This document shows, one piece after another, positions 10,888 to 28,123 of a stretch of 60,165 bases of DNA. How positions within the stretch are numbered: the first letter of the stretch is position 1; every line of letters begins with the position of its first letter. Origin of the DNA: Thermoplasmata archaeon (lineage in GTDB: Archaea > Thermoplasmatota > Thermoplasmata > Lutacidiplasmatales > UBA184). The notes below the pieces were generated by a model. That model had not been told where the DNA came from and made no database searches. It saw only the letters and a list, made by a program, of their open reading frames with translations. The stretch is taken from the NCBI GenBank assembly GCA_021827405.1, contig JAKAVY010000006.1, forward strand, positions 1 to 60,165. Direction: 5' to 3'. A program made the position numbers and the translations under genes.

Positions 10888-11838
10888 TCAGAGCCCGGGC
10901 CAGCGGTACACGAGCCAGTTCACGAGCATGGCGAGAGCGACCCCGGTCAGGTAGAGCCCCGAGAAGATGAAGCTCCGGAGGGCGACCGGGCGCTCCACGC
11001 TGCGGAGGAGCCCGGTCAAGAGATAGGTGAACCCGAGCCCCAGGGCCAGGGCCAGGGCGAGGAAGACCGCGTAGTCCCGGAAGAGGAGCCCGAAGGCGAC
11101 CGTGGGGAGGAGCAGGAGGGCCCCGGAGTAGAAGGTGATCCGCCCGGAGCGGAGGGGCTCCCCCGGGGCGGGGAGCATGGGCAGTTGCGCGCGTTCGTAG
11201 TCGTCCTTCAAGGCGAGCGCGAGGGACCAGAAGTGCGGTGGGGTCCAGAGGAAGACGAGGAGGGCGAGCAGCAACCCGGCGGGGTTGAAGGTCCCCAGGA
11301 CGGCGGCGCAGCCGGCGAGGACCGGGGCGCTGCCCGCGTAGCCCCCGATGACGATGTTCCAGCGGGTCCGGCGCTTCAACCAGACGGTGTAGACCCCCAC
11401 GTACACCAGCGTCCCCGAGGCCAGGGCGAGGAAGGAGAGCCACGGGAGCCACCACGCGGCCAGGGCCCACCCGAGCGCGGTGAGCCCCAGCCCGAAGGAG
11501 AGTACGGCCCCGGCGGAGAGCCGGTCGGAGGGGAGCGGCCGGAACCGGGTCCGGCGCATCACCAGGTCGAGGTCCCGGTCGTACCAGTGGTTGAGCGCGG
11601 CGGCCCCGCCGGAGGCGAGTCCCCCGGCGACCAGGAGCTCGGCCAGGCGCCACCACGGCGGCGGGTAGGCGGGGTCCCCGGCGAAGAAGCCGGCCACGGC
11701 CATGAGCAGGATGAGCCCGGTGATCCCCGGCTTGGTCAGGGCGAGATAGGCCGAGCCCAGGGAGGGGCGCTTCCGCTCCGGGGCTCCCGTGAGGCCCGGG
11801 CCGGCCGGCTCAGGGGCCGGTGGCGCGGATGGCATCAT
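10888..11838 (-). CDS. ctaB: Heme o synthase (protoheme IX farnesyltransferase)
   Basis: LTKPGI, NHWYDRDLD..MRRTRFRPL, YTVWLKRRT, FLWTPPHF, DDY..AQLPMLP. Confidence 0.95.
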   Translation of the reverse strand: MMPSAPPAPEPAGPGLTGAPERKRPSLGSAYLALTKPGITGLILLMAVAGFFAGDPAYPPPWWRLAELLVAGGLASGGAAALNHWYDRDLDLVMRRTRFRPLPSDRLSAGAVLSFGLGLTALGWALAAWWLPWLSFLALASGTLVYVGVYTVWLKRRTRWNIVIGGYAGSAPVLAGCAAVLGTFNPAGLLLALLVFLWTPPHFWSLALALKDDYERAQLPMLPAPGEPLRSGRITFYSGALLLLPTVAFGLLFRDYAVFLALALALGLGFTYLLTGLLRSVERPVALRSFIFSGLYLTGVALAMLVNWLVYRWPGL

Positions 11839-12358
11839 CCTCCCCGAAGAGGCTCACGCGCCAGCGGGGGGGAAGGTGGGGGATGTTCACCAGGAGGGCC
11901 ACCACCAGGATCACGGCGAAGATGAGGATGGCCACGGCGAGGTGGAGGATCACCACGATCGGGTCCGCCTGGGTGAAGATGATCACCCCTCCGAGGGCCG
12001 CCTGGAGGACCACCAGGCCCAGGGACAGGGCTCCCAGGCGCCGGACGGCCCGCCCGTTCGGCTCGTAGGCCAGCACCAGGGCCAGGAGGGCGAGGATGAG
12101 CACGGAGAGGGTGAGGGCGGCCAGCCGGTGGGAGAACTCCGCGAGCACGGCGTTGGTCAGGGCATCCGGGAAGAGCCCGTTGCCGTTGCAGGTGGGCCAG
12201 CTTGGGCAAGCGAGGCTGGAGTTCGACGCCGTCACGTCGGCCCCGATGACGATGGTCACGTACGTCCAGACGGCGGTGACCACGCTGACCACGCGGACCC
12301 ACCGGTGCCCCCGGGGGTGCGGGGCCCGGGGCGGAGAGGGCCCCTCGGTCAGGCCCAT
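11810..12358 (-). CDS. ctaA: Heme A synthase, compact 4-TM archaeal type (COX15/CtaA)
   Basis: C-terminal 182 aa of track ORF 11810..14614 from ATG 12358: CPSWPTC, EFSHR, LQAALGG, ILHLAVA. Confidence 0.85.
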
Positions 12359-14604
12359 GGGTCCTCCGAGGCGGGGGTCCCCCGGTACCGGCTCACCACC
12401 ATGTTGAAGATGAAGATGAGCTGAGCGATGCCGAAGATCCCGGCCCCGATGGTGGAGAGCAGGTTCAGCTGAGCGAAGTTCAGCCCGATGGGGGTGGAGA
12501 GCCCGGGGATGTAGGAGTACACCCGGCGAGGCATCCCGCCCATCCCCAGGAAGAACATGGGGAACAGGAGCATGTTCGCCCCCACGTAGCTCAGGACGAA
12601 ATGCCAGTTGGCCAGTTCCTGGTTGTACCAGCGCTTGGTCACGATGGGATAGAGGAAGTAGATGGCCGCGAAGGAGGCCATGAGGGTCCCGCCGAGGAGG
12701 GTGTAGTGGAAGTGGGCCACCACGAAGTAGGTGGCGTGGACGAGGTAGTCGATGGGGATGGACCCGAGCATGACGCCGGAAAGCCCCCCGATGAGGAACA
12801 TGGTGAAGAAGGCGATCAAGAACCAGGTGGGGGTCTCCAGCCGGACGGACCCGCCCCAGAGGGTCCCCAGCCAGTTGAACATCTTGACCCCGGTGGGGAC
12901 CGCGATGGCCATGGTGGTGAGCATGAAGGTGAACCGGACGTCGGTGGCCTCCCCGGTGGTGAACATGTGGTGCTGCCAGACCACGAAGCCCAGGATCCCG
13001 ATGGCCGCAATGGACAGGGCCATGGCGGTGTAGCCGAAGATGTGCCGGCGGACCATCTTGGGGAGGACGGTGGAGACGAGCCCGAAGGCCGGAAGGATGA
13101 GGATGTAGACCTCGGGATGGCCGAAGAACCAGAAGAGGTTCTGGTACATGAGCGGACCTCCGAGGGGGGAACCGTTCACCGCGTAGGTGAAGTGGGTCCC
13201 GAAGTTGCGGTCCGACAGGATCATGGTGAGGGCCACGGAGAGGGAGGGCATGGCGGCCAGCACCAGGAAGCTGTTGATGAACACCGACCAGACGAAGATG
13301 GGCATGTTCCAGAAGGTCACGCCCGGGGCCTTGTGCTTCATCACGGTGACGATGAAGTTCACCGCCCCGAGGATGGAGGAGACGGAGGTGATGTGGAGCG
13401 CGGCCACCCAGAGGTCGATCCCGTGCCCGGGCTCCAAGGTGGCGAGGGGGACGTAGCCGGTCCACCCGGCGTTGGCATTCGAGAGCAGAAGGATGATGGC
13501 CGCGGGAGGGAGCAGCCAGAAGGCGAGGTTGTTGATCCGGGGCATGGCCATGTCCTTCGAGCCGATCATGGTGGGGAGCAGGTAGTTCCCGAACCCGCTC
13601 ATCAGCGGCATGATGGCGAAGAAGATCATGACCGTCCCGTGCTCGGTGAAGAGCGTGGAGTACATGTCCGGGGAGATCCCGATCGAGGAGGCGGTGATCC
13701 CCAACGCGGGGACCCCCAGGTCGGTCCGGATGAGCATGGCGTAGACACCGCCCACGAAGAACATGAGGAACGCGAAGACGATGTACATCAGGCCGATGTC
13801 CTTGTGGTCGGTGGTCACCAGCCAGCGGAGCACATGGCGGCGGAACCAGTACGGGAGCGGCCGGCTCCGCGCGACCTTCTGGTAGGCCAGGTCCCGGGAG
13901 CGGTGGAGCACGTCCAGGACGTGGAAGAGGAGTCCCCCTCCCAGGGCCATGAAGGCGATGGCGAAGCCGAAGGTGCTCTCCACCCCGGGCGTGGTCAACG
14001 GGGGAAGCGTGAGGATGAAGCCGGCGAGCACCCCTTCGCCGGCGAGGACCAAGACCACCCCGGCGATGTAGTAGTCGAGCTTGCGGCTGAGGCCCTCGGG
14101 GACCTCCTCCCCGGCCGGGTAGCTCACCACGCCGGCGTAGGCGATGAAGACCCCGGCGGCGAAGGGGATAAGTCCCACTGCCCCGAGGGTCCCCTGGACA
14201 TAGCCGGTGACCGTGACCTGGATGGGGGCGGTCAGCGCGCTCGAGCTGTTCACGTAGAAGTACTGTCCGGGCGCGAGGTCGAACTGGAAGCCGTTGGACT
14301 CCCCGGCGAGGACCGCGATCCGGGGTCCCAGCGTGCTGCAGCTCGCGTCCGATCCGCAGGAGAAGACCTGGATGACGGAGTTGTTGGTGCTCCCGATCCA
14401 GCTGACGTTGTAGACCACGTCCTGGCTTAACCCGTAGGGCGTGCTGTAGCCCACCACCTGGGAGGGGTTCACCGGCTGGGGCCCGCTCCCGCCCGCGGGG
14501 GCCCCCGTGATCTGGAAGCTCCAGGAGGGGGTGGCCGGGGAGACCACCAGGGCGCCTCCGATGACGAGGAGGACGAGCCCGAGCACCAAGAGACCTCTGC
14601 GCAT
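12349..14604 (-). CDS. coxA: Heme-copper oxidase subunit I, A1 type, with ~270-aa N-terminal extension
   Basis: [24 protein letters not shown] (D-channel), [22 protein letters not shown] (K-channel), VAHFHY, GMPRR. Confidence 0.95.
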
Positions 14605-14610
14605 GTTCCC

Positions 14611-14886
14611 TCACTCGAACAGCCGGATGCGGCGGGAGAGCGGGTTACGGAGCCGGTCGAGGCGATAGACCACCCCGAGGGTGAGGTAGAGGAAGAAGAC
14701 GAAGCCGACGCTCCCGAGGACCCCCAGGACGAGCATGAGGGCGACGGACCCTCCGCCGAGCGCCGCGGCGAAGGCCTCGGCGCCGCCGATCCCGCAGGCC
14801 ATCCCGGCGAGCGCGAGCAGGGTGAGGACGACCCAGATCACCCAGGTCCGGACCCGGGGAGGTCTTTCGAGGGGCTCAGTTCCCAC
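14611..14886 (-). CDS. Small 2-TM membrane protein in respiratory operon
   Basis: Two hydrophobic segments; tightly packed between cytochrome b and CoxI. Confidence 0.7.
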   Translation of the reverse strand: MGTEPLERPPRVRTWVIWVVLTLLALAGMACGIGGAEAFAAALGGGSVALMLVLGVLGSVGFVFFLYLTLGVVYRLDRLRNPLSRRIRLFE

Positions 14887-16291
14887 GGGTCGACACCTCC
14901 AGGGGAGGCGCCGCCGTCGGACGGGGGGAGGGGAGCGGGCCGGCCGGGGCGGGGGCGCCTCCCGGGGCGGGTCCCTTGGTCTTGAGCTCCCGGGCCAGCA
15001 TCCGTCGCCGGTAGTTGGCCTTGTAGAGGGGATAGAGGACCAGGAGCGGGAGGGCGTTCGCGGCCACGAGGATCCCCAGGTAGGTCCCGTAGATCGTGGC
15101 CGGGATCTGCACCCCGGGCATGATGCCGCCCCAGATGGTCATGAGCACGAAGAAGGAGACCAGGAAGTTTCCCAGGAAGACCATCACGGGCCGGTCCCGG
15201 GGGTGCCGGCGCTTGCCCCCATCCAGCCAGGGGAGAATCTGGACGATCCAGGGGAGGAAGAGGATGAAGAGCAGCAACGCCGTGACGGAGCCCACGGCGA
15301 CCACGGGGGTCACGTACTGGAAGTCCGCCATCTTGTAGAGCCAGAGGAAGTACCAGTCCGGCTCGGGAGAGGCGGCTCCCGCCGTGGAGCCGTAGTAGAC
15401 CGGGAGCTGCCAGGGCCAGGCGGCCGCGATGAGGAAGAGCAGCCCGACGTAGAAGAGCGCCCACTTGGTCATGTAGAAGAAGACCCGGGGGAAGAAGCGC
15501 CCGAGCTTCCGGTCGTCGTGCTCCGTGAACTTGTTCTTCGCCCGGGGGTCGCTGGTGGCCTTCGGCGCGATCCCGTGGCTCTCGAAGAGGGAGAGGTGGG
15601 CGTAGAGCAGCCCGGCCAGGGCGAGCGGGATCACCACCACGTGGAGGGCGAACATCCGGGAGAGCAGCCCCTGGGTGGTACCGTCGGAGATGAGGAGACG
15701 GGCCGCCAGCGGGCCTAAGGTGGGGACGGAGAGGGTGAGGGAGATCCCCACGTCGGTGGCCCCCACGCTGAGCGCCGTGAAGGGGAGCAGGTAGCCGGTG
15801 AAGCCCATGCCGAGCATGGCCACCAAAAGGAGGGTCCCTACCATCCAGGAGAGCTCCCGGGGGGGTTTGTACACCCCGGTGTAGAACCCGCGGAAGAAGT
15901 GGACGAAGGCGAGGAAGATGGTGGCGTAGGCCCCGTACAGATGGGAGGAGAGCAAAAGCCAGCCCATGGGGACGCTGGTGATGATGTAGTTGGTGGAGGC
16001 CCAGGCCTCGGGGGTCCCCCCGGGGCCGGTGAGGGCCGCGGAGGGGATGTAGTAGAGGAGGAGGAGCAGGCCGGTGACCACCTGGACCAGGAAGGCGGTG
16101 GCCACGAAGGCGCCGGTCCAGTACGAGGCGTTGAAGCTGAAGGCGGGTTGGGGGCGAAGGGCCCAGGTCTTGATCCCGGCCCGGTCCTCCACGAAGTCCC
16201 AGACCCGGTCCAGGGAGCGGTTCATGGGGGAGCGCCAGGGCGGGGGCGCGCTGCCCGGAGGGGGGGGAGGTCCGGAGGGTTCGTTCGCCAT
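14876..16291 (-). CDS. petB: Cytochrome b of Rieske/cyt b complex
   Basis: SHLYGA..FVHFFRG heme ligands, YKPPRELSW, FTGYLLP, FALHVV..YAHL, PDWY (PEWY-equivalent Qo motif). Confidence 0.93.
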   Translation of the reverse strand: MANEPSGPPPPPGSAPPPWRSPMNRSLDRVWDFVEDRAGIKTWALRPQPAFSFNASYWTGAFVATAFLVQVVTGLLLLLYYIPSAALTGPGGTPEAWASTNYIITSVPMGWLLLSSHLYGAYATIFLAFVHFFRGFYTGVYKPPRELSWMVGTLLLVAMLGMGFTGYLLPFTALSVGATDVGISLTLSVPTLGPLAARLLISDGTTQGLLSRMFALHVVVIPLALAGLLYAHLSLFESHGIAPKATSDPRAKNKFTEHDDRKLGRFFPRVFFYMTKWALFYVGLLFLIAAAWPWQLPVYYGSTAGAASPEPDWYFLWLYKMADFQYVTPVVAVGSVTALLLFILFLPWIVQILPWLDGGKRRHPRDRPVMVFLGNFLVSFFVLMTIWGGIMPGVQIPATIYGTYLGILVAANALPLLVLYPLYKANYRRRMLARELKTKGPAPGGAPAPAGPLPSPRPTAAPPLEVSTRGN

Positions 16292-16309: not shown

Positions 16310-17131
16310 TTACGCGGGGCACTGCTGGTTGGACGGGGTGAGGTTGGACGCCTGGGAGCGCCCGGAGACGCCCGTCCCACCGGTGAGGCTCGTGAAGTGG
16401 TCCTTCACGGGGGGGCCGATCATGCTGTAGGCGTAGATGTTCCCTTCCGCGTCGGTCTTGAGCAGCGTCTGGGGGATGGGGAGGACGGTGGGGCCGGTGA
16501 GGATGGCGGCCCCGCCCCCGTCCGAGGTCTGCGAGACGAACGGGTCGTAGGTGGACCCGTGGCAGATGCAGTGGATGATGGCCCGCCCGTTGTTGAAGTT
16601 GCCGCACTTCCCGGCCGGATAGTAGGAGATGAATGGGGGGACGCAGCCCAGGTGCTGGCAGATGGCGCTGTAGGAGACCACCCCATTGTTCGGTCCGATC
16701 CCGTTCGGGGCGGCGGACCCCAGGTAGAGCAGGAAGTTCGGCTCGTTGGTGAGCGGATAGTTGTACAGGGTCAACTCGTTGGAGTCCGGGTTGATGTGGT
16801 CGGCGATGTTGTCCACCGTGACCGCCGACCCGTCGCTGTAGAAGAGCTGGACCGTGGGGTAGCTCGCCAGCCCCTGCAGCGGCGGTTGGGCATACTGGAG
16901 GGCCCCGGCGACGGCCCCCCCGCCGGCCACGGCGGCGAGCCCGCCGATGGCCATCAGTTTCAGGATGTTGCGCTTCGCCTCGTCCACCTGGCCCTGGGTC
17001 TTCGGGTTGCTCAGGTCCGCCGGCGCCACGTGGCGGACCACGCCCGGAGGGGTCCGGTCGAAGAGGGCCAGAAAGTCCGCCAGGCGCTGATCGTAGGCTT
17101 CCTCGCTGAAGTACGACGGTGCTCCGTTCAT
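16310..17131 (-). CDS. Rieske 2Fe-2S protein of Rieske/cyt b complex
   Basis: Start MNGAPSYF (ATG 17131); KRNILKL Tat-like signal plus TM; CQHLGC and CICHGSTY boxes. Confidence 0.92.
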   Translation of the reverse strand: MNGAPSYFSEEAYDQRLADFLALFDRTPPGVVRHVAPADLSNPKTQGQVDEAKRNILKLMAIGGLAAVAGGGAVAGALQYAQPPLQGLASYPTVQLFYSDGSAVTVDNIADHINPDSNELTLYNYPLTNEPNFLLYLGSAAPNGIGPNNGVVSYSAICQHLGCVPPFISYYPAGKCGNFNNGRAIIHCICHGSTYDPFVSQTSDGGGAAILTGPTVLPIPQTLLKTDAEGNIYAYSMIGPPVKDHFTSLTGGTGVSGRSQASNLTPSNQQCPA

Positions 17132-17556
17132 GGTTGCCTTCCCTCCGCTTCCCGCTCTCGCTCCTTTCTGAGCCGGAACTGAAGCTCCTCCTCCCCCGTG
17201 ACCGGGACCTCCTCGGCGTCCCCGGGAAGCTCCGCCTGGTCCGCGTCCTTGTAGACGTAGAGGATCACCATGATCCCGAAGAGGACGAGCACGAGGGTGG
17301 TCAGGTTCAGCACGAAGAGGCAGTTGAAGCTCATCCCCCCCACGCTGACCGGGGGGAGCGGGCAGGAGATGGTGGTGGGGAACCCCGGGGTGGACGGGGG
17401 GGACGAGCTCCCGTTGAGGGGGCTGGCCGCGGCCGTCGGGGCCACGGACGCGATGCCCGTCCCGCCGAGGCTCCCGCCCGGGAAGGAGAGCGCGGCCACC
17501 AACCCTACGAGGAGAACGAGGACCAACGAGACGCGGAAAGCCGTGCTGCCCCTCAA
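17128..17556 (-). CDS. Hypothetical membrane protein (N-terminal signal/TM, Cys pair, C-terminal TM)
   Basis: Overlaps both neighbours by 4 nt; two hydrophobic segments. Confidence 0.65.
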   Translation of the reverse strand: MRGSTAFRVSLVLVLLVGLVAALSFPGGSLGGTGIASVAPTAAASPLNGSSSPPSTPGFPTTISCPLPPVSVGGMSFNCLFVLNLTTLVLVLFGIMVILYVYKDADQAELPGDAEEVPVTGEEELQFRLRKEREREAEGRQP

Positions 17557-17921
17557 GGTGCGTCCTCCAACGGGTCGTCGGGGGGGAGAGGCTCGACCCT
17601 ATGAACCTCACCCACCGACCAGACCCCGGGAGAGGAGATCGCGACGGCCGACGGGGGCGGGGGGGCCACGGGGAGCCCGGGGGAGGACCAGGCCGGGGGA
17701 GCGGGGGGGCTTCCCATGGGGGCAGAGGGGGCCCGGGTCGGGCTGCCCGGGCCGAGCTCGGTGGCGTCCCGGAGCTCCCGGAGGAACTCGTCCCGCATGC
17801 GGAGGACCTTGGCGTAGAGCCGTCCGGCGGTGCGGAAGAGCTCCCGGTTGTCCCCGCCGAGCAGCAGCAGGCCGCCGACCAGGAGAAGGATGGTCCAATC
17901 CACGTCCGAAAAGAGGCTCAT
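17553..17921 (-). CDS. TatA/TatB-like translocase subunit
   Basis: N-terminal TM ending in LLLGG, amphipathic helix (ELFRTAGRLYAKVLRMRDEF) and Pro-rich tail; directly downstream of tatC. Confidence 0.6.
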   Translation of the reverse strand: MSLFSDVDWTILLLVGGLLLLGGDNRELFRTAGRLYAKVLRMRDEFLRELRDATELGPGSPTRAPSAPMGSPPAPPAWSSPGLPVAPPPPSAVAISSPGVWSVGEVHRVEPLPPDDPLEDAP

Positions 17922-18745
17922 GCGGTCCCTCCCAGGGGGCCGCCGCGGTAGGGGGCGCTCTCCCGGCGCTCGTGCCGCTCGGCCGCCACCATGCCCCCCA
18001 CGTAGAGGCCCATCATGGGGATCGCGATGAGCAGCATGGTGATGCCCGAGTTGTCCGGGGTGATGAGCATCCCGAAGATCAGGCAGCCGAGGACCGCGCC
18101 CCGCCAGTGCTTCCGCCAGAAGTTCGCCGGCACCAAGCGCAGCCGGCTCAAGGTGTAGATGAAGACCGGGAGCTCGAAGACCACCCCGAAGGCCACGGTG
18201 TAGAGGAGGGCGAAGGCGAGGAAGCTCCCGACGCTCAGGACCGGGGCCAGGTTCAGGGCCCCTACGTAGCGGAAGAGGAGCAGGAAGGTGAACGGGGTGA
18301 GCCAGAAGAGGGCCAGCAGGAAGCCCACGGCGAAGAGGAGCGTGGCGGGGGCGGCCACGCTTCGGATCAGGGCCCGCTCGTTGGTCCTGAGCGCGGGGAC
18401 GAGGAAGGCCCCCACCTCATGGGCGATCCAGGGGGTGGAGAGGACCAGGGAGAGGAGAAGCCCGATCTCCATCTGGGCGACCACGGAGTCCCCGACCCCG
18501 ATGTTGAGCAGGGTGACGCCCGGCGGGAGCATGTCGTGGACGAACCAGAGGAAGACCTGGGCCGTGATGTTGTAGAAGGGGCTCGGGATGGGGAGCACCA
18601 GGGGGAAGGGGAGCCCGGCCACCGGGAAGGTCTGAAGCTTGAAGAAGAGCACGAAGCCGAAGATCGGGACCACCACCCAGAGGATGCGGACGACCCGGCG
18701 TCGGAGCTCGTCCAGCACGCTGAAGAACTGGTGGAGCTCGCTCAT
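17918..18745 (-). CDS. tatC: Twin-arginine translocase TatC
   Basis: LDELRRR, FLVPALRTNE, VFELP, LITPD motifs; 6 TM. Confidence 0.92.
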   Translation of the reverse strand: MSELHQFFSVLDELRRRVVRILWVVVPIFGFVLFFKLQTFPVAGLPFPLVLPIPSPFYNITAQVFLWFVHDMLPPGVTLLNIGVGDSVVAQMEIGLLLSLVLSTPWIAHEVGAFLVPALRTNERALIRSVAAPATLLFAVGFLLALFWLTPFTFLLLFRYVGALNLAPVLSVGSFLAFALLYTVAFGVVFELPVFIYTLSRLRLVPANFWRKHWRGAVLGCLIFGMLITPDNSGITMLLIAIPMMGLYVGGMVAAERHERRESAPYRGGPLGGTA

Positions 18746-18750: not shown

Positions 18751-19359
18751 CTATCGGGACCCGGGCGGCTGGAGGACGACGCGTTGCGGGTCCTCGTGCC
18801 GGTTAAGGAAGAAGGTGACCAGGGGCTTCTCCGCGGGTCCCTCGAGCACCCGCCCGTCCCGTCCCGCGAACCGGCTGCCGCAGCGGGGGCAGGACCAGCG
18901 GTCCTCCCGGGGCTCGTAGAGCAGCGGCCCGGCGTCCCGGGGGCACAGGGTGCTGGCGCAACGGAGCCGGTCGGTGGCGGTGAGGATCGCCTCCCCCGGG
19001 GAGAGCCCGGGGCCCCGGGAGAAGAGCCCAGGCCCTCGTTGGTCCCCGAGCCAGTGGAAGGGCAGCGGGCCCTCCCTGAGCTGGCGGCGGAACTCGAAGA
19101 GGCTCAGGTAGCGCCCTCCCTGGACCAAGCGCCACTCGGCGTCCAGGAGGGGGCGGGCATCGACACCGGCGGAAGGGGGAACGAAACCGGGGGCCGGGTC
19201 GGGGGACGGGGAGGGAGGGGGTTCCAAGAACTGTCGGACGGGCCGGGGGAGCCCGAGGGCCCCGGCGGCGAGGGCCGCCCCCGCCAGGAGACCGAGGTCC
19301 GGGCGGGTCAGGGGGGCCGGCGCGTCCGTCGGGGCCTTCCGGTCAGGGCGTCCGCTCAT
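18751..19359 (-). CDS. Rieske-fold protein with non-canonical ligands
   Basis: STLCPRD...WSCPRCGSRF..DGRVLEGPAEKPL matches the Rieske fold, but both His ligands are replaced. Confidence 0.65.
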   Translation of the reverse strand: MSGRPDRKAPTDAPAPLTRPDLGLLAGAALAAGALGLPRPVRQFLEPPPSPSPDPAPGFVPPSAGVDARPLLDAEWRLVQGGRYLSLFEFRRQLREGPLPFHWLGDQRGPGLFSRGPGLSPGEAILTATDRLRCASTLCPRDAGPLLYEPREDRWSCPRCGSRFAGRDGRVLEGPAEKPLVTFFLNRHEDPQRVVLQPPGSR

Positions 19360-19385: not shown

Positions 19386-19589
19386 TCAGCGAAGTTGGGC
19401 CTGGTCCCGGGCCACGCGGGCGTTGTTCTGGGACTGGGCGAGCTCGAGCTCGGACTCAGCCTTCCCCTTCTTGAACTCCCCCACGGCCCGGCCCAGGCTG
19501 TGGGCGAGCTGGGGGATCTTGGCCGAGCCCCAGAACAGAATGGCGAAGACCACGGCAATGATGATCCAGTCGTCGATGCTGTCGAACAT
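19386..19589 (-). CDS. tatA: Twin-arginine translocase TatA
   Basis: ILFWGSAKIPQLAHSLGRAVGEFKKG. Confidence 0.93.
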   Translation of the reverse strand: MFDSIDDWIIIAVVFAILFWGSAKIPQLAHSLGRAVGEFKKGKAESELELAQSQNNARVARDQAQLR

Positions 19590-19692: not shown

Positions 19693-20733
19693 TCAGGGAC
19701 CCGGGGGTGTGCGGGACTCCCGGGGGTCTCCCGTGACCGCACGGTCCATGGCCACCTCCACCAACCCCTCGAGGTTCTTGGCCCCTTGGCGGAGGGCCGT
19801 GTTGAAGGAGAGCGGGGTACGCCCCGAGACCCTCCGGGACCGCTCGGGACGGGCGGACTCGAGCTTCCGCTGCAGGGTATGGACCTGGTCCCGGGCCGCA
19901 CAAGCGCGGGTGAGGGACGGGTGGACCAGGGCGTCCACCACCGTCTCCAACCCGGCCTGGTAGGCCTGGAGGATCTCCGCCCGGGCCGGGTTGGGGGTCC
20001 CCCGCCCCCGGGAGAGCGTGGGGAGGAGGTCCACCAGGATCCGTCCGCTCTCCCCCAGGGACTGGACCACCACGCGCCAGGAGAGGAGGTGACGGGGATC
20101 GGGGCTCCCGATCTCCCGGGCCAGGGACCAGTCCCGGCTCGCCAGCTGGAGCTGCCGGACGAGGAGGGCGTGGACCTTCCCGAGCTCCTCGGAGAGCGCC
20201 GGGGCGCGCTTGGAGCGAGAGGGGCCCTCCCGTCGGACCAGCCCCTCGGCCTCCTCCACCAGCGCGCTCAGGATCATCCGCATCCGCTGGATCATCTGGG
20301 GGAGGGAGTACTTCGACGGGTCGAGGAAGCTCTGGACCACCAGGCGGTTCGGTTCGTGGGCCACCACGCTGACGCCGAGGAGGCGGCGGGCCGCGGCCTG
20401 TACCTCCTCCACCGCCTCCAGGGTCAGGGGGACATCGGAGAGGATCTCGATGGAGTCATGGCCGGCCCGGTAGGCGCCGGCCACCAGGAACTCCAGCTCC
20501 CCGGGAGAGGCGAAGAGGGTGGCCTCCACCTGGAAGGGCGCGAGCGACCTTCCCCCGGACTTTCCCTGGGCCGGCCGGAGGTAGAGCGTACCGTCATCGT
20601 TCTGGTCGAAGACCACCATGTCCCCCGGGCGAAGGTGGAGGGCCTGGGCCCAAGGTTTCGGGAGGGTCACCGCGATGGAGGAATGCCCGGCCTTGAGGAC
20701 CCGGCGTTCCCTCGACGGTCCCCCCCACGGCAT
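19693..20733 (-). CDS. AbrB-domain / PhoU-domain transcriptional regulator (archaeal phosphate-uptake regulator family)
   Basis: N-terminal RRVLKAGHSSIAVTLPKPWA..LRPGD (AbrB), GAYRAGHDSIEI, followed by helical PhoU-like repeats. Confidence 0.85.
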   Translation of the reverse strand: MPWGGPSRERRVLKAGHSSIAVTLPKPWAQALHLRPGDMVVFDQNDDGTLYLRPAQGKSGGRSLAPFQVEATLFASPGELEFLVAGAYRAGHDSIEILSDVPLTLEAVEEVQAAARRLLGVSVVAHEPNRLVVQSFLDPSKYSLPQMIQRMRMILSALVEEAEGLVRREGPSRSKRAPALSEELGKVHALLVRQLQLASRDWSLAREIGSPDPRHLLSWRVVVQSLGESGRILVDLLPTLSRGRGTPNPARAEILQAYQAGLETVVDALVHPSLTRACAARDQVHTLQRKLESARPERSRRVSGRTPLSFNTALRQGAKNLEGLVEVAMDRAVTGDPRESRTPPGP

Positions 20734-20930: not shown

Positions 20931-21668
20931 TCACGGGCTCCCCGGCTTCGCCGGGGGCTCCTCCTCGTCGTCCGGCGGCTCCTCCCGGGCCTCGGCGAGG
21001 TCCAGGGGATACGGGCGGGAGTCGTTGTAGTACTCCACCCGGCTCGTCAGGGGGGTGCCCTCCCGGGGGACCACCCCCTCCTCGGGGCTCCCTCGCTTCC
21101 CGTAGACCACGCCTAAGACGAGCGCCAGGAAGGCCAGGACGACCACGGCGATCACCACGTACCAGAACGCGGCGAAGGACGGGGCCGCTGCCGGGGCGAT
21201 GCTCTCGTCCACGTAGACCAAGCCCTGCATCCCGAGGGGATAATGGGGCCGGCAGATGAACTGGTAGGCGCCCGGCGCTCCGAACGTGACGTTCACGTAG
21301 ACCACCTGGGAGGCGTTCACCGTCCGGTCCGCGTACACGTCCCCGGGGACAAAGAAGCTCGGCCAGTTCGAATCGGTCGCCGGAGGGGCGGTCTTGTTCA
21401 CCTGGTTGGACAGGGTGAACGTGTGGGCCAGGTCGCCTCCCACATTCGAGATGATGAACTCCACCGCCTTCGTCGTCACCTGGACGTCGTCCGGGACGAA
21501 GGTGAAGGAGTTCGTCGTGGTGATGTTCACCACCGTCACCCCGTTGTGGGCGGCCGGGTGCACCAAGGTCCCGTTGGGACCCGTGGGGCCCGTCTGCGCC
21601 GCCCAGCCCAGCGCCGAGAGGGCCACCGCCACCGCGAAGAGCACTGCTGCCCAGCGTAATGCACCCAT
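20931..21668 (-). CDS. Membrane-anchored blue (type-1) copper protein, cupredoxin family
   Basis: Signal peptide, AHTFT, YQFICRPHYPLGMQG (Cys-His-Met), C-terminal TM anchor. Confidence 0.88.
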   Translation of the reverse strand: MGALRWAAVLFAVAVALSALGWAAQTGPTGPNGTLVHPAAHNGVTVVNITTTNSFTFVPDDVQVTTKAVEFIISNVGGDLAHTFTLSNQVNKTAPPATDSNWPSFFVPGDVYADRTVNASQVVYVNVTFGAPGAYQFICRPHYPLGMQGLVYVDESIAPAAAPSFAAFWYVVIAVVVLAFLALVLGVVYGKRGSPEEGVVPREGTPLTSRVEYYNDSRPYPLDLAEAREEPPDDEEEPPAKPGSP

Positions 21669-21831: not shown

Positions 21832-22059
21832 TTGCCTCTGACCGGGGAAGGCGTAGCGGCCTGGCTCCTCCCGGCCCTCCAGACCCCGTTCCAACTGACC
21901 TACTGGCTCCTCCTCACCATCTTCTTCATGGCGCTCGCCGTGGGTCTGGTCTTCGTGGGGCTCCTGGTCTACGGGCTCATCCACTTCCATGGTCGGGAGG
22001 TCCCCGCCCACCTGAAGAACGTCGCCCGGCCCCCTCGGTCCCCCCCTTCGCACCCATGA
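21832..22059 (+). CDS. CoxII N-terminal TM1-like small protein (first part of apparently split subunit II)
   Basis: GGAGGT SD then TTG; TIFFMALAVGLVFVGLLVYGLIHFH resembles CoxII helix 1; stop overlaps the next start (ATGA). Confidence 0.65.
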   Translation: MPLTGEGVAAWLLPALQTPFQLTYWLLLTIFFMALAVGLVFVGLLVYGLIHFHGREVPAHLKNVARPPRSPPSHP

Positions 22060-22613
22060 CCGCTCCCGCTCCCTCCCGGCCCCCGCTCACCCCCCGCGAA
22101 CGGGCCCGCCGGAACAAGCGGATCGAGTGGATCTGGACCCTCATCCCGATCGTCCTGGTCATGATCGTGGCGGGGATCTCCACCCCGCTGTTGTTCAACC
22201 TCGATACCGGTCCCGCCGGGTTCGGCTCCAACCCGAACATGAACGTCGACGTGACGGGCTACCAGTGGTTCTGGGAGTTCCACTACACCGACCCCTTCGG
22301 CAAGGAACTGACCAACGGGACCGGGCAGGTCTTCTCCAACGGCACCCTCTGGGTCCCCCAGAACGCCATCGTCTGGATCAACGTCACCTCCGGCGATGTG
22401 GTCCACTCCTTCAACATCCCCCAGCTCGGGGTGCGCATCGACGCGATCCCCGGGCGGATCAACCATTACTGGTTCTCGATCCCCGCCGGTACCGCCGTGG
22501 GCACGCAGTTCCTCGCCCAATGCACGGAATTCTGTGGGGCCGGCCATTACGACATGCGGGCGGAGATCGTGGTCACCCCGGCCTCTCCCCTCCTGCATCC
22601 GATGTCGATCTGA
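22056..22613 (+). CDS. coxB: Heme-copper oxidase subunit II (TM2 + CuA domain)
   Basis: IEWIWTLIP, GYQWFWEF, DVVHSF, DAIPG, CTEFCGAGHYDM (complete CuA ligand set). Confidence 0.93.
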   Translation: MTAPAPSRPPLTPRERARRNKRIEWIWTLIPIVLVMIVAGISTPLLFNLDTGPAGFGSNPNMNVDVTGYQWFWEFHYTDPFGKELTNGTGQVFSNGTLWVPQNAIVWINVTSGDVVHSFNIPQLGVRIDAIPGRINHYWFSIPAGTAVGTQFLAQCTEFCGAGHYDMRAEIVVTPASPLLHPMSI

Positions 22614-22703: not shown

Positions 22704-23828
22704 TCAGGGGGAGGCGGGGGCCGCTACCGGATCCGCCCCGGGCGAGAGCACCTGGGCGGTCGCCCGGGCGATCTCCAGGTCCTCCCGGGCCCGAAGGACG
22801 AAGGCCCGGACCGGGGCGGACGCCGACCCGACCTCCCGGTCCGGCTCCCCGGAACGGTTCTTCGCCGGGTCGAGCGCGAGGCCCAGGAAACCCAGCCCCT
22901 CCAGCGCCCGGGACCGGATGACCTCCGAGTTCTCCCCCACCCCTCCCGTGAAGGCGATCGCGTCCAGGCCCCCGAGCGCCGCGGCCATGCTGGCGATGCC
23001 GGCGCGCAGCCGGTGGAGGTAGACCCCCACCGCGAGCCCGGCGTCCGCGTCGCCCCGCGCCTCGGCCTCCAGCACCTCCCTGAGGTCGGCGGAGCCGGCC
23101 AGGCCCGCGAGCCCCGAGCGATGCTCGAGGGTCGCCGCCAGTTCGGAGGGGGGCATCCCGGTGTGCTCCTCGAGCCAGAGCACCAGACCGGGGTCGACGC
23201 TCCCGGATCGGGTGCCCATCACCAGCCCCTCCAGGGGGGTGAAGCCCATGGTGGTGTCCACCGAGGTCCCCCGGTCCACCGCGGCGAGGGAGGCCCCGGA
23301 GCCCAGGTGGCAGGTCACGAGACGGAGCGTGGCGAGGTCCCTCCCGAGGAGCTCTCCGACCCGCCGGGAGGCGTAGGCATGGGAGAGGCCGTGGAAGCCG
23401 AAGCGCCGGAGCCCCCAGCGTTGCCGCCACTCCCGGGGGAGGGCGTAGGTGGAGGCGGCCGGCGGCAGATGGGCGTGGAAGGAGGTGTCGAATACCGCCA
23501 CCGCGGGGACCCCCGGGAGGAGGCGTGTGACCAGGTCCAGGGCGTTCAGGGACTTGGGCTGGTGCAACGGGGCGAGATCGGTGAGGGCCCCCAGGCGCTG
23601 CCGGACGGCCTCGTTCAGGCGGACCGGTCCCAGGAACTCCGTCCCCCCGTGGACGATCCGGTGGCCCACGGCGTCCACGGGCCCGTGGTCCGAGAGGAAC
23701 TGCCGGACGGCCCCCTCCTCGGTCCGCCCCCCGGGGGTAGGGAGGGTCTGGTCGGCCCCTAGTTGCCCGTCCTTTAGGACGGAGAGCTTGAGGCTGCTGG
23801 AACCAGCGTTGACCGTGAGGATCCGCAT
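22704..23828 (-). CDS. ackA: Acetate/propionate kinase
   Basis: NAGSSSLK, GHRIVHGG, APLH, FDTSFH, GFHGLSH, HLGSGAS, FTGGVGEN. Confidence 0.95.
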   Translation of the reverse strand: MRILTVNAGSSSLKLSVLKDGQLGADQTLPTPGGRTEEGAVRQFLSDHGPVDAVGHRIVHGGTEFLGPVRLNEAVRQRLGALTDLAPLHQPKSLNALDLVTRLLPGVPAVAVFDTSFHAHLPPAASTYALPREWRQRWGLRRFGFHGLSHAYASRRVGELLGRDLATLRLVTCHLGSGASLAAVDRGTSVDTTMGFTPLEGLVMGTRSGSVDPGLVLWLEEHTGMPPSELAATLEHRSGLAGLAGSADLREVLEAEARGDADAGLAVGVYLHRLRAGIASMAAALGGLDAIAFTGGVGENSEVIRSRALEGLGFLGLALDPAKNRSGEPDREVGSASAPVRAFVLRAREDLEIARATAQVLSPGADPVAAPASP

Positions 23829-23840
23829 GGGTCCGACCGC

Positions 23841-26213
23841 TCAGTACGGCCAGGACCAGCCCCGGATCTCGGGCGGGTCCTCCCCGTGGGCGCGGGTGTA
23901 CGCCCGGCAGCGTACCCGCGCGTCCTCCATGTCCTGGCGCAGCCGGGCCGCGTGGGAGGCCAGGCCGGGCACCCGGTCGATCACGTCCATCACCAGGTGG
24001 AAGCGGTCCAGGTCGTTCAGCATGACCATGTCGAAGGGGGTGGTGGTGGTCCCCTCCTCGTTGTACCCCCGGACATGGAAGTTCGCGTGGTTGTTCCGTC
24101 GGTAGGTGAGGCGGTGGATGAGGGCGGGGTACCCGTGATAGGCGAAGAGCACCGGGCGGTCCCGGGTGAACAGGGAGTCGAACTCGGCATCCGAGAGCCC
24201 GTGGGGGTGCACCGAGGCCGGCTCCAGCCGCATCAGGTCCACCACGTTCACCACCCGGATCTTCAGGGTCGGGAGCTTCTGCCTGAGGAGGTCCACCGCC
24301 GCCAGGGTCTCCAGGGTGGGGATGTCCCCGCAGCAGGCCATCACCACGTCCGGGTCCCCTGCGTCGTTGGAGGCCCACTCCCAGATACCGAGACCCCGGG
24401 TGCAATGGAGCACGGCCTGGTCCATGGGCAGGTAGTTCAGCGAGGGCTGCTTCCCCGCGACGATCACGTTCACGTAGTTGCGGCTCCGCAGGCAGTGGTG
24501 GGCCACCGAGAGCAGGCAGTTGGCGTCCGGGGGGAGGTACACCCGGATCACCTCGGCCTTCTTGTTCACCACATGGTCGATGAACCCGGGGTCCTGGTGG
24601 GAGAAGCCGTTGTGGTCCTGCCGCCACACGTGGGAGGAGAGCAGGTAGTTCAGGGAGGCGATGGGCCGGCGCCAGGGGATCTCCCGGGTGGTCTTCAGCC
24701 ACTTGGCGTGCTGGTTGAACATGGAGTCGACGATGTGGATGAACGCCTCGTAGCAGTTGAACAGCCCGTGGCGCCCGGTCAGCAAGTAGCCCTCCAGCCA
24801 TCCCTGGCACTGGTGCTCGGAGAGCACCTCCATCACCCGGCCCTCCCGGGCCAGGTGGTCGTCGGTGGGAAGCCGCTCCGCCTCCCATTGCCGGTCCGTC
24901 ACCTCGAACACCGCCTCGAGCCGGTTGGAGACGGTCTCGTCGGGTCCGAAGAGGCGGAAGTGCGTGGGGTTCTGCCGGATCACGTCCCGGAGATACCCCC
25001 CCAGGACCCGGGTGGCCTCGGCGAACGTGGTCCCGGGCCGGGGGACCTCCACCCGGTACTCCGTAAAGTCGGGGAGGGAGAGCTCCTGGAGGAGCAGCCC
25101 GCCGTTGGCGTGGGGGTTCGCGCTCATCCGCCGATGGGCCCTGGGAGGCAGGGAGGCCAGTTCCGCCACGAGCGCCCCTTGCCTGTCGAAGAGCTCCTCG
25201 GGCCGGTAGCTCCTCATCCAGGCCTCCAGTTGGGTGAGGTGCTCCGGGTTCGTCCTTACCTCGGGAAGCGGGACCTGGTGGGCCCGCCACGTTCCCTCCA
25301 CCGGGAGGCCATCCACCACCTTCGGTCCGGTCCAGCCCTTGGGGGTCCGTAGCACGATGAGCGGCCAGCGGGGCCGGCCGGTGTCCGACCCGGAACGGGC
25401 GGCCCGCTGGACCCGGAGGATCTCGCCCACCGCCGCGTCCAGCGCCTCCGCCATGGCCCGGTGCATCTCCCCCGGGACCTCCCCGGAGACCCAGGTGACC
25501 GCGTACCCGTACCCCTCCAGGAGGGAGGTGAGCTCCCGGTCGCCGATCCGGGCCAGGACGCTGGGGTTCGCGATCTTGTACCCGTTCAGATGGAGGATGG
25601 GCAGGACCGCCCCGTCCTTGGCGGGGTCGAGGAACTTGTTCGAGTGCCAGCCGGTGGCCAAGGGCCCCGTCTCCGCCTCCCCATCGCCCACGATGCAGCA
25701 GACCAGAAGGTCCGGGTTGTCGAAGGCCGCCCCGTAGGCGTGGGCGAGCGAGTAGCCCAGTTCCCCTCCTTCGTTGATCGATCCCGGGGTCTCCGGGGCC
25801 ACGTGGGAGGGCACCCCGCCCGGGAACGAGAACTGGCGGAAGAGCCGTCGGAGCCCGTCTTCGTTCCGGCCGATGAGCGGGTAGACCTCCGAGTAGGTCC
25901 CCTCCAGGTAGGCGTTGGCCACCGCGGCCGGGCCGCCGTGGCCCGGGCCGATGACCAGGAGCGTGTTGAGGTCCCAGTTCCGGATGACCCGGTTCATGTG
26001 GGCGCAGATGAAGTTGATCCCCGGGGTCGTCCCCCAATGTCCCAGGAGCCGGGGCTTCACGTGCTCGGGCTTGAGGGGTTGGCGGAGCAGCGGGTTGTCC
26101 ATGAGGTAGATCTGCCCCACCGACAGGTAGTTCGCGGCCCTCCAGTACGCGTGGATCCGCGAGACCTCGTCGTCGCTGAGGGGCCGTTGCGCGGACACCG
26201 GCGAGGCGCTCAC
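23841..26213 (-). CDS. xfp: Xylulose-5-P/fructose-6-P phosphoketolase
   Basis: [33 protein letters not shown] (TPP), [35 protein letters not shown]; start taken at GTG 26213. Confidence 0.95.
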
Positions 26214-26453
26214 GGCCCGGTCCCGGCCGGGCCCGGCGGCGGGGCCCCCCGCCTGCTTCGAGGTGGGGCAGAGCCCGGTCGATCCGGCCCCTCCCCGCGG
26301 GGGCCTGGTGAAGGGAAGCCTGGCATCGGCGCAGGGGAGCGGTGTTCGCTTAAAAGTCCGTAGAAGAACGCTCCGGCGCTCGGGCGCGCCCCTCTCCGGG
26401 CTCAAGCCGACCTGAGGATACCTCTTCATAGGGCCGGGATTTTCCTCCTCGAC

Positions 26454-26999: not shown

Positions 27000-27013
27000 G
27001 GCCCTCCCCCGGT

Positions 27014-28123
27014 TCAAGGGTGGGCCGGCGGGGAGGTCCCCGGGTCCCCTCCCGGAGGGGTCTCCCGCTTGCGGCGGGCGGTGTTGCTCTCGCTCATCCC
27101 CATGAGGACCAGGAAACCGGCCCCGGCGAGCACCACCGCCGCCACCACGAAGAGCCCCACCTGGACGACCTGGCCGACCACCGGCACGTTGTTCGGGGGT
27201 TGTGGCGTGACCCCCACGTAGATGTGTCCCTGCATCCCTGGGAAGTGACCGGGGACCGTGCAGACGTACTCGTACACCCCGTGGCTGGCCGGCATGGGGA
27301 TGGGGGGGGTCACCACCGGCGGAGCGCTGGGGCTCAGCGGGTCGTTCACCAGCGGAGGGTGGGCGACGAAGTAGGCGAGCAGTTGGCTGTTGGAGAAGCT
27401 GTTGGACAGGCCGGTGTCGTTGGGGATGGAGTCCAGGGTGAAGGTGTGGGAGAGCGCTCCCTGGACCCCCACCTCAAAGACGATGGGAAGCCCCGGGGAG
27501 GCGATGAGGATCGCGGGGACGAAGGTGATGGAGCCGGTGGCGTTCAGGAAGACCACCTGGTGGGGGCCGACCACGCCCGAGCCCACGTTCAGGAAGCCGA
27601 AGAGCCCGGCCTTGAACTGATACCCGCCGGAGGCGAGGGAGAGGAACTCGTAGCTGTCCCCCGACGGGCCCTTCAGGGTGTGGAAGGTGTAGTTCCAGTA
27701 CCCGACCTGCCCGGGGGCCAGGGTCAGGTTGACCAGGGAGGCGTTGGGGGGGGCGAAGAGGGCGAGGAGCTTCGCGGGGGTGATGTTCGCCGGGATCACC
27801 TGGTTGGGCGTGGCGTCCACGGTGAACGTGTGCTCCACGCTTCCCACGTTGACCAGGCGGAGGGAGAGCGTGGTGTTCGTCGAGACGTTCAGGGTGGACG
27901 GCTCGTAGCCGTTGTCGGTGACGTTGACCGTCAGGTTCTCCTGGGAGGCGGGAGAGCCTCCCGGCACGTACCGGGCGTAGCCGATGCTCTGGGGGCTGAC
28001 ATACCCGTCGAGATGGAGGAGGTAGGGGACGGAAAAGGCGCTCGCCACCATGGCGAGCACCACCACCAGGGAGAGGACTCCCCGGCGGGAACGCCCGGGC
28101 CCGCGCCTCCAGGGGGATCTCAT
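27014..28123 (-). CDS. Two-domain cupredoxin (rusticyanin/sulfocyanin-like), membrane anchored, probable Tat substrate
   Basis: SRRGVL twin-Arg signal; two HTFT motifs; domain 2 has YEYVCTVPGHFPGMQG; C-terminal TM. Confidence 0.85.
   Translation of the reverse strand: MRSPWRRGPGRSRRGVLSLVVVLAMVASAFSVPYLLHLDGYVSPQSIGYARYVPGGSPASQENLTVNVTDNGYEPSTLNVSTNTTLSLRLVNVGSVEHTFTVDATPNQVIPANITPAKLLALFAPPNASLVNLTLAPGQVGYWNYTFHTLKGPSGDSYEFLSLASGGYQFKAGLFGFLNVGSGVVGPHQVVFLNATGSITFVPAILIASPGLPIVFEVGVQGALSHTFTLDSIPNDTGLSNSFSNSQLLAYFVAHPPLVNDPLSPSAPPVVTPPIPMPASHGVYEYVCTVPGHFPGMQGHIYVGVTPQPPNNVPVVGQVVQVGLFVVAAVVLAGAGFLVLMGMSESNTARRKRETPPGGDPGTSPPAHP

What the first reader, a model, noticed from the sequence alone, without database searches (positions are those of the whole stretch)
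10888..28123. Self-contained, cytochrome-c-free Rieske/cyt b - blue copper - A1 oxidase supercluster with its own Tat and heme maturation genes
Seen: tatA, Rieske-like, tatC, tatB-like, hyp, Rieske, cyt b, hyp, coxI, ctaA and ctaB in one tightly overlapping run, with CuA-type CoxII divergent and two anchored cupredoxins nearby. I saw no CxxCH protein and no subunit III. Known: SoxM-type complexes of Sulfolobus and clusters in Thermoplasmatales use blue copper proteins in place of cytochrome c. Inference: a lineage-specific supercomplex with several novel subunits; rusticyanin-like proteins could also feed in Fe(II)-derived electrons.
Basis: partly seen in the sequence, partly recalled or inferred. 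Interest (0 to 1): 0.7.

Follow-up and report, generated by a model that had tools for sequence, protein, structure and literature searches.

The report
Oxidase fused to complex III subunit
This respiratory gene cluster of uncultured Thermoplasmata archaea was already published in 2022, but its oxygen-reducing enzyme has its copper subunit split over two genes, has no detectable subunit III, and carries on its main subunit a small membrane module that likely belongs to complex III and would tie the two respiratory complexes together.

Summary
The gene run is real and conserved (53-56 of 56 relatives' loci per core gene). It matches the complex III/IV locus published for Lutacidiplasmatales (Sheridan 2022), including blue-copper proteins in place of cytochrome c. 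No cytochrome c, maturation system or subunit III was found in this 91%-complete genome.

Two features go beyond that paper.
(1) coxII is split into a first-helix peptide (21832-22059) and a one-helix CuA subunit in 55 of 55 loci. The scan noted this split, and the CoxI fusion, earlier on other DNA.
(2) CoxI residues ~168-245 are a separate gene in most relatives. In one genus that gene stays with cytochrome b copy for copy when this oxidase is gone. A structure model docks a relative's free form on cytochrome b (0.61, best control 0.00; a mark reached by 116 of 157 solved and 2 of 215 mismatched pairs). The fusion therefore likely tethers complex IV to complex III covalently.

The Fe(II) idea is unsupported: neither cupredoxin is rusticyanin-like. 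The Tat genes are the genome's only set. Verdict: known locus, new variant; supercomplex inferred, not shown.

The parts
10888..11838 (-). ctaB, haem O synthase
   Evidence: TIGR01473 above cut-off; 53 of 56 loci
11810..12358 (-). ctaA, short four-helix haem A synthase (182 aa)
   Evidence: Weak NCBIfam haem A synthase match, E 5e-7; 4 helices, CxxWPxC and ExxHR motifs kept in relatives
12349..13851 (-). CoxI catalytic core (residues 252-751), A1 type
   Evidence: Pfam COX1 269-722; six His, E286, cross-link Tyr, K362, N139 invariant in 49 of 49 rows; fold matches aa3 subunit I
13870..14103 (-). Fused two-helix module N2 (CoxI residues ~168-245); free 121-128-aa three-helix protein in genera g4-g6; likely a cytochrome b-binding complex III subunit
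   Evidence: Separate ORF in g4-g6; follows cytochrome b in genus g3; model docks a relative's free form on cytochrome b; interface maps to CoxI residues 202-235
14104..14604 (-). Fused module N1 (helix, beta-rich outer domain, helix), no metal motif seen
   Evidence: AlphaFold strands at 50-134 with low confidence; 6 of 56 loci, g1/g2 type only; joined to N2 in a free 234-aa protein in g3
14611..14886 (-). 91-aa two-helix protein, likely complex III accessory subunit
   Evidence: 54 of 56 loci; kept with cytochrome b in 3 of 3 g3 genomes that have it; no family match
14876..16291 (-). Long cytochrome b, PDWY Qo motif
   Evidence: Pfam; best NCBIfam SoxC, below cut-off; four His invariant in 45 relatives' rows; PDWY 54 of 54
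16310..17131 (-). Rieske protein with KR/RR Tat-type signal anchor
   Evidence: Both cluster boxes intact; twin-basic motif in 54 of 55; best NCBIfam SoxL2, below cut-off
17128..17556 (-). 142-aa membrane protein (about 60 aa, one helix, in g4-g6), likely complex III-associated
   Evidence: 55 of 56 loci; kept beside Rieske in g3, also in the second copy of G009
17553..17921 (-). TatB-like (TatA/B paralogue)
   Evidence: HHalign to tatA 96.7%, E 3.5e-10
17918..18745 (-). tatC, the only one found in the genome
18751..19359 (-). Degenerate Rieske-fold protein, both His ligands lost
   Evidence: Weak PetC match; 2 of 56 loci, both g1, and two g3 genomes
19386..19589 (-). tatA
   Evidence: Pfam TatA_B_E
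19693..20733 (-). AbrB-domain protein, probable regulator
   Evidence: 51 of 56 loci
20931..21668 (-). Cupredoxin, 245 aa, N-terminal and C-terminal helix, full type-1 site
   Evidence: Pfam Copper-bind; best solved matches pseudoazurin and plastocyanin
21832..22059 (+). cox2a: separate peptide carrying the first membrane helix of subunit II
   Evidence: TTG start after GGAGGT; homologous to helix 1 of intact CoxII, HHalign 95%, E 3.6e-8; dN/dS about 0.17 against G001
22056..22613 (+). cox2b: second helix plus CuA domain
   Evidence: TIGR02866 match starts at profile position 51; CuA ligands and K-channel Glu invariant in 53 of 53
27014..28123 (-). Two-domain anchored cupredoxin; domain 1 has no complete copper site, domain 2 has one
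   Evidence: best solved match auracyanin A

Best explanation
The cluster encodes a Rieske/cytochrome b complex and an A1-type oxidase with subunit II in two pieces and no detectable subunit III, likely linked by membrane-anchored blue-copper proteins in place of cytochrome c, and likely held together in this genus by a complex III subunit fused to the front of oxidase subunit I. Shown in sequence: the genes, cofactor ligands, proton-channel residues, the split and the fusion. Inferred: quinol is oxidised at the PDWY site; the Tat-exported Rieske protein reduces a type-1 copper domain; that domain reduces CuA; electrons pass through haem a to the haem a3-CuB site, and protons are pumped. The Cox2a peptide would fill the place of the first helix of subunit II. 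The second helix of module N2 is predicted to pack on cytochrome b residues 268-293. Only about 35 residues separate it from the first core helix of CoxI, so each cytochrome b would hold one oxidase beside it (III2-IV2 if complex III is the usual dimer).
For: Cofactor and channel residues conserved. No cytochrome c or maturation genes in the genome and PF00034 in 1 of 150 family genomes. Cupredoxin domains are fused to CoxI in genus g3 and, by weaker profile matches, to CoxII in three loci of other families. Subunit III profile finds 4 of 5 g3 genomes but 0 of 2 g1, 0 of 4 g2, 2 of 121 g4, 0 of 8 g5, 0 of 9 g6. Split coxII in 55 of 55 loci with four junction geometries, and no indel at the junction in contigs of three runs from three studies. 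In g3, N2 matches cytochrome b copy number in 5 of 5 genomes (0/0, 2/2, 1/1, 1/1, 0/0) while this oxidase is missing from those loci; dN/dS about 0.16 for the free N1N2 gene. Complex model of a g4 relative's free subunit with cytochrome b and the 91-aa protein's homologue: score 0.61, best of 3 controls 0.00, contacts agree at least 68%, partner pLDDT at least 68; the mark was reached by 116 of 157 solved and 2 of 215 mismatched pairs. The interface lies in the part kept in the fusion.
Against: The complex model used a relative's free subunit, my own alignments and three chains, unlike the tool's calibration; the fused form was not modelled with cytochrome b, and the subunit was not tested against CoxI. 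The g3 profile rests on five related genomes, one only 64% complete, and neighbouring genes can be lost or kept together for position alone. G009, the genome with no oxidase match, keeps ctaB, so an oxidase may be unassembled there; the second G009 copy has N2 without the 91-aa protein. The AlphaFold model of the extension has pLDDT mostly under 50. Which cupredoxin serves which complex is untested. One of 49 junctions has ACG in place of ATG. The Mg-site Asp of CoxI is replaced in 49 of 49 rows.
Confidence: 0.6

Rival explanations
1. The small membrane proteins, including module N2, are oxidase subunits that replace the missing subunits III and IV; the fusion is an ordinary within-complex fusion and complexes III and IV are separate, linked only by mobile anchored cupredoxins.
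For: N2 is fused to CoxI or lies directly upstream of it in all loci that hold both. Subunit III and IV are absent here but present in the sister CoxI clade. A profile alignment places N2 on helices I-II of subunit III, without significance (probability 0.5%, E 0.12).
Against: N2 and the 91-aa protein stay with cytochrome b, under purifying selection, where this CoxI is gone, and N2 is absent from G004, which has an oxidase but no cytochrome b match. The complex model places the subunit on cytochrome b and the score falls to 0.00 when cytochrome b is replaced.
Confidence: 0.2
2. Module N2 is an assembly or membrane-insertion factor for cytochrome b or the Rieske protein that binds only transiently, so the fusion couples assembly but gives no stable supercomplex.
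For: It sits in an operon with Tat and haem synthesis genes; it has no cofactor motif; binding to cytochrome b in a model does not separate stable from transient contact.
Against: A permanent fusion to the catalytic subunit in two genera makes it stoichiometric with the oxidase.
Confidence: 0.12
3. The chain also oxidises Fe(II): one of the cluster's cupredoxins takes electrons from ferrous iron, as proposed for Ferroplasma.
For: Near-identical DNA occurs in mine drainage, tailings and sediment metagenomes (10 runs hold half or more of the words). A third cupredoxin elsewhere in the genome has a weak sulfocyanin match.
Against: Neither cluster cupredoxin matches rusticyanin or sulfocyanin models at E up to 0.01 or a rusticyanin structure at E up to 1. 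The same cluster is kept family-wide, and the published members are soil organisms described as possibly obligate heterotrophs. Such genes did not predict iron oxidation in Cuniculiplasma or Picrophilus (PMC5155288).
Confidence: 0.07
4. Subunit II is made as one chain by programmed ribosomal frameshifting, not as two polypeptides.
For: 49 of 49 g4-g6 junctions share one 8-nt overlap that a +1 shift would join; one has ACG in place of ATG.
Against: g1/g2 junctions differ (-4 in the window and 4 loci, +4 in one, +3 with an in-frame stop in one) and have Pro/Ser-rich tails at both free ends. The Tyr codon forming the ATG is TAT in 44 and TAC in 1, against 364 TAT of 3860 Tyr codons in neighbouring genes. 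The same 8-nt overlap joins another gene pair of the operon in 47 of 47 loci.
Confidence: 0.06

Closest known systems
Complex III/IV locus of Lutacidiplasmatales (Sheridan et al. 2022, PMC9287336; passages and supplementary Data 8 and 9 rows read)
   Same: Same genes in the same order: coxB, unknown, blue copper protein, unknown, tatA, tat, two unknowns, Rieske, cytochrome b, two unknowns, coxA (A1), ctaA, ctaB; no c-type cytochromes; coxC scored absent.
   Different: In what I read, the six small ORFs are left as unknown; the one beside the one-helix coxB is not recognised as its first helix, and no CoxI fusion or complex III assignment is given.
SoxM supercomplex of Sulfolobus acidocaldarius (recalled; cited as reference 43 in PMC9287336, not read)
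   Same: Rieske, cytochrome b, CuA subunit II, A-type subunit I and a blue copper protein encoded together, no cytochrome c.
   Different: SoxM is a subunit I+III fusion (PMC11237513 passage) and uses sulfocyanin; here subunit III is not found and the cluster cupredoxins do not match sulfocyanin.
Subunit IIa plus one-helix subunit II of B-type (ba3) oxidases (Prunetti et al. 2011, PMC3128077; passages read)
   Same: The first helix of subunit II is supplied by a small separate gene directly upstream.
   Different: IIa runs with opposite polarity and shows no sequence similarity to that helix; Cox2a is homologous to it and belongs to an A1 enzyme with D- and K-channel residues.
Cuniculiplasma-type oxidase (Golyshina et al. 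2016, PMC5155288; section 16 read)
   Same: Classed as A1, lacks subunits III and IV and cytochrome c; five loci of this type also have a one-helix CoxII behind a small membrane ORF.
   Different: Distant CoxI clade without the E286 Glu; its small ORF is not clearly homologous to helix 1 (HHalign 10%); complex III genes lie elsewhere. A shared origin of the two splits was not rejected (p-AU 0.061).
Obligate III2IV2 supercomplex of Actinobacteria (review PMC8361435; passages read)
   Same: No small soluble cytochrome c; complexes III and IV held together.
   Different: Linked electronically by a dihaem cytochrome cc; subunit III present (recalled); here the proposed link is copper and a covalent subunit fusion.

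Membership tests
Lutacidiplasmatales complex III/IV locus | Gene content and order as in the paper's Data 9 | tested here: met
   the window adds a degenerate Rieske gene and the CoxI fusion
Lutacidiplasmatales complex III/IV locus | Host placed in that order by marker genes | not tested
   Relatives are titled only Thermoplasmata; the order is inferred from the locus
A1 haem-copper oxygen reductase | Six His ligands, HPEVY motif with Glu and cross-link Tyr | tested here: met
   49 of 49 rows
A1 haem-copper oxygen reductase | D-channel (D132, N139) and K-channel (K362, T359, subunit II Glu) residues | tested here: met
   Window has all; D132 is Glu and T359 is Ser in 42 of 49 rows
A1 haem-copper oxygen reductase | CuA centre in subunit II | tested here: met
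   All ligands invariant in 53 of 53
A1 haem-copper oxygen reductase | Subunit II as one chain with two membrane helices | tested here: not met
   Two ORFs in 55 of 55 loci
A1 haem-copper oxygen reductase | Subunit III, separate or fused | tested here: not met
   genome 91% complete
A1 haem-copper oxygen reductase | Oxygen reduction with proton pumping | not testable with these tools
   needs purified enzyme
Rieske/cytochrome b complex | Cytochrome b with four haem His and Qo motif; Rieske boxes | tested here: met
Rieske/cytochrome b complex | c-type cytochrome subunit (bc1/b6f types) | tested here: not met
SoxM-type supercomplex | Subunit I+III fusion | tested here: not met
   CoxI ends right after the core; no subunit III match
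SoxM-type supercomplex | Sulfocyanin in the cluster | tested here: not met
SoxM-type supercomplex | Co-purification of complexes III and IV | not testable with these tools
   only a model of one subunit pair
B-type oxidase with subunit IIa | One-helix subunit II with a separate upstream helix gene | tested here: met
B-type oxidase with subunit IIa | IIa unrelated in sequence to helix 1; subunit I without D-channel | tested here: not met
Rusticyanin/sulfocyanin iron-oxidation system | Cluster cupredoxin matches rusticyanin or sulfocyanin | tested here: not met
Rusticyanin/sulfocyanin iron-oxidation system | Fe(II) oxidation | not testable with these tools
   uncultured

The most novel reading that the evidence does not exclude
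These archaea build a covalently stapled complex III-IV supercomplex: a cytochrome b-binding subunit, perhaps standing where the cytochrome c1 anchor helix stands in bc1 (recalled, not tested), is fused to oxidase subunit I, and a minimal A1 oxidase with a two-piece subunit II and no subunit III is fed by tethered copper domains alone.
Probability: 0.45. Interest if true: 0.75.

Novelty: new variant of a known kind. Interest (0 to 1): 0.55.

Why it matters
If true, a respiratory supercomplex would here be enforced by a gene fusion between subunits of two different complexes, and relatives with the same subunit free give a natural comparison for the old question of what III-IV association is for. 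The family also shows an A1 oxidase kept without subunit III and a recent, still recognisable fission of subunit II, a model for how the IIa/II arrangement of B-type oxidases may have arisen. It assigns likely roles to several of the six unknown proteins of a published, widespread locus. The cluster itself and the copper-for-cytochrome-c idea are not new.

Tried and rejected
Pfam and solved-structure profile searches did not identify Cox2a, the 91-aa protein or the free N2 subunit; Cox2a was identified only with a profile of 118 intact relatives. Atlas look-ups gave only leads under 0.9. N2 and the 91-aa protein as remnants of subunit III or IV: not supported. Pfam COX3 alone is too weak a test: it missed the fused subunit III of genus g3, so I built a local profile. 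Assembly error at the coxII junction: rejected. The fold search of the CoxI model returned oxidase subunit I only among the listed rows and said nothing on the extension. A separate fold of the extension or the free subunit was not obtained, so their folds stay open. The careful CoxI tree did not finish; quick trees are used. No RNA holder listed. A conserved Tat signal on the 369-aa cupredoxin was not established. No cytochrome bd match in the genome. Literature searches listed no paper describing the split or the fusion in these archaea; most hits were seen as listings only, subscription papers are not covered, the paper's SI text 'Complex IV evolution' did not show among my supplement search hits, and the bioRxiv version's supplements were not read.


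Full report
Observation. The window is a whole 60-kb contig of a 1.82-Mb, 91%-complete genome; its closest relatives are titled Thermoplasmata. On the minus strand lie tatA, a Rieske-like gene, tatC, a TatA/B paralogue, a 142-aa membrane protein, Rieske, cytochrome b, a 91-aa membrane protein, coxI, ctaA and ctaB, with gaps of -29 to +26 nt. Upstream are an AbrB-domain protein and a 245-aa cupredoxin; coxII is divergent; a 369-aa cupredoxin follows after ackA, a phosphoketolase and an unknown ORF. I fetched 56 loci from 55 genomes of five genera of the family, chosen because they had coxI or coxII matches. Each core gene was found in 53 to 56 of them, and the core misses are loci cut by a contig end. 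The Rieske-like gene (2 of 56), module N1 (6 of 56) and the AbrB-domain gene (51 of 56) are patchy.

Absences. No Ccm/Ccs or CcdA/DsbD protein was found in the genome. Sixteen CxxCH motifs in likely genes (24 in all ORFs) look like zinc or thioredoxin sites by my reading. PF00034 matched 1 of 150 family genomes. Pfam COX3 found nothing here but also missed a divergent fused subunit III in genus g3, so I built a profile from 14 Thermoplasmata subunit III sequences. It found 4 of 5 g3 genomes and 2 of the other 145 genomes, counting this one, both weak, and nothing better than E 0.026 in this genome. One of the two weak matches lies beside that genome's cytochrome c match in a fragmented caa3-like locus. 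There is one TatC, no SCO and no cytochrome bd. These are 'not found' results in incomplete genomes.

What is in print. Sheridan et al. 2022 (PMC9287336; passages and supplement rows) describe complex IV genes of Lutacidiplasmatales beside complex III, haem A and O synthesis, Tat, a cupredoxin and six unknown proteins, class all as A1, report no c-type cytochromes and propose blue copper carriers. Their Data 9 order matches this locus.

Split subunit II. The CuA gene (22056-22613) begins at the second helix; the first helix is in an upstream ORF (21832-22059) whose stop overlaps the next start by 4 nt. All 55 loci with coxII are split. In g4-g6 the overlap is 8 nt in 49 of 49, with ATG in 48; the Tyr codon that forms it is TAT in 44 and TAC in 1, against 364 TAT of 3860 in neighbouring genes. 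g1/g2 show gaps of -4, +4 and +3, the last with an in-frame stop, so no single frameshift joins them all. Contigs of three runs from three studies cross the junction without an indel; a fourth run did not cover it, and one may be the source sample. A profile of 118 intact subunit II N-termini scores 50 of 50 peptides at 8 bits or more (median 17.6) against medians of at most 5.1 for six other membrane peptide sets from these loci and from Cuniculiplasma-type loci; HHalign gives 95%, E 3.6e-8. The peptide is under purifying selection (dN/dS about 0.17). In quick CoxI trees of Thermoplasmata only, the split group is one clade (support 99) whose sister clade has intact subunit II, with separate subunits III and IV seen at three of its loci, so the split and the loss look derived. 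A distant Cuniculiplasma-type clade also has a one-helix subunit II; a common origin was not rejected (p-AU 0.061). The scan had noted the split before.

The CoxI extension. Residues 1-251 consist of module N1 (helix, beta-rich domain, helix; low-confidence model) and module N2 (two helices). In g4-g6 N2 is a free 121-128-aa protein encoded between the 91-aa gene and coxI; in g1/g2 it is fused. It was found only in this family (43 of 300 class genomes). Genus g3 separates the two complexes: three genomes keep Rieske, cytochrome b, the 142-aa and 91-aa genes, a free N1N2 protein and ctaB, but not the CoxI core, ctaA or coxII at that locus. Across the five g3 genomes N2 equals cytochrome b in copy number (G004 0/0, G009 2/2, G014 1/1, G019 1/1, G023 0/0), whereas the other, cupredoxin-I-III fused oxidase is in G004, G014, G019 and G023 and no oxidase was found in G009. 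The free gene is conserved (dN/dS about 0.16; cytochrome b 0.08). g3 is sister to g1+g2 in a cytochrome b tree, so its free protein is either the pre-fusion state or what was kept after the oxidase core was lost. A model of a g4 relative's cytochrome b, 91-aa homologue and free subunit supports binding of the subunit: score 0.61, best of three controls 0.00, runs agreeing in at least 68% of contacts, partner pLDDT at least 68; 116 of 157 solved complexes and 2 of 215 mismatched pairs reach this mark, counts that hold only roughly for this job. Confident contacts are with cytochrome b only and map to window CoxI 202-235 and cytochrome b 268-293 and 105-112. Limits: five related genomes, one 64% complete; G009 keeps ctaB; the fused form was not modelled, and binding to CoxI was not tested.

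Mechanism. Haem, copper and channel residues are intact in CoxI and Cox2b; D132 is Asp here and Glu in 42 of 49 rows, and the Mg-site Asp is replaced throughout. Cytochrome b has PDWY and four invariant His; the Rieske boxes are complete and preceded by a KR/RR signal in 54 of 55. Both cupredoxins have one full type-1 site; the first domain of the larger one lacks the Cys and second His family-wide. Fusions of such domains to CoxI in g3 and to CoxII in other families support them as donors to the oxidase. I infer quinol to Rieske to copper domain to CuA to oxygen, within a supercomplex held by N2. That loss of subunit III is better tolerated at low pH is recalled from Rhodobacter work and was not checked.

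Iron. The cluster cupredoxins match pseudoazurin/plastocyanin and auracyanin, not rusticyanin or sulfocyanin; a third cupredoxin elsewhere has a sub-threshold sulfocyanin match. The organism's DNA occurs in mine drainage and tailings runs, so iron oxidation is not excluded, but such genes did not predict it in cultured relatives (PMC5155288).

Verdict. Observation confirmed; interpretation partly supported; locus known; split subunit II well supported; complex III identity of the fused module likely; covalent supercomplex inferred. I found neither feature in print in nine searches of the held library. Interest 0.55.

Noticed in passing
G000:C30:10660-13398 (+): A second, very divergent haem-copper protein of 912 aa: subunit I fused to a subunit II-like domain with no Cys (no CuA); HSIVY motif keeps the Tyr. 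Similar ~915-aa ORFs matched in several g4 genomes. Possibly a B-family quinol oxidase.
   Followed up: partly
L074:10588-13722 and L073, L075, L211 (genus g3): A 1044-aa cupredoxin-CoxI-subunit III triple fusion with an intact CoxII, in four genomes.
   Followed up: partly
L178, L179, L182, L195, L196, L197 (families f24, f27, f29, f32): The sister CoxI clade has SHPAVY in place of the E286 motif; three loci have CoxII extended by cupredoxin-like domains.
   Followed up: partly
L189, L190, L192, L193, L194 (family f20): Cuniculiplasma-type oxidases have a one-helix CoxII behind a conserved ~82-aa membrane ORF, and lack the E286 Glu although published as A1.
   Followed up: partly
window 18751-19359: Rieske-fold protein between tatA and tatC with Cys residues kept but both His lost; only g1 and g3; could bind another metal or chaperone the Rieske protein.
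   Followed up: partly
window 27014-28123, domain 1: The copper-less first domain keeps a strongly conserved loop with Ser and Gln at the Cys and His positions across the family, which suggests a docking role.
   Followed up: partly
window 10063-10815: A 250-aa soluble protein of no Pfam or NCBIfam family follows ctaB in 53 of 56 loci.
   Followed up: no
window 22704-26240: Phosphoketolase and acetate kinase genes sit between coxII and the distal cupredoxin here and in G001, not in G002; probably a recent insertion.
   Followed up: no
window 35290-43115: A group of hemerythrin-like, flavoprotein and FAD/NAD reductase-like ORFs, named by eye from translations only.
   Followed up: no
L208 (G118:C4:7670-11125): A fragmented caa3-like locus with cytochrome c and subunit III matches in one g4 genome; transfer or contamination.
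   Followed up: partly
G000:C60:34447-35148 (-): Third cupredoxin, N-terminally anchored, weak sulfocyanin match, outside the cluster.
   Followed up: partly
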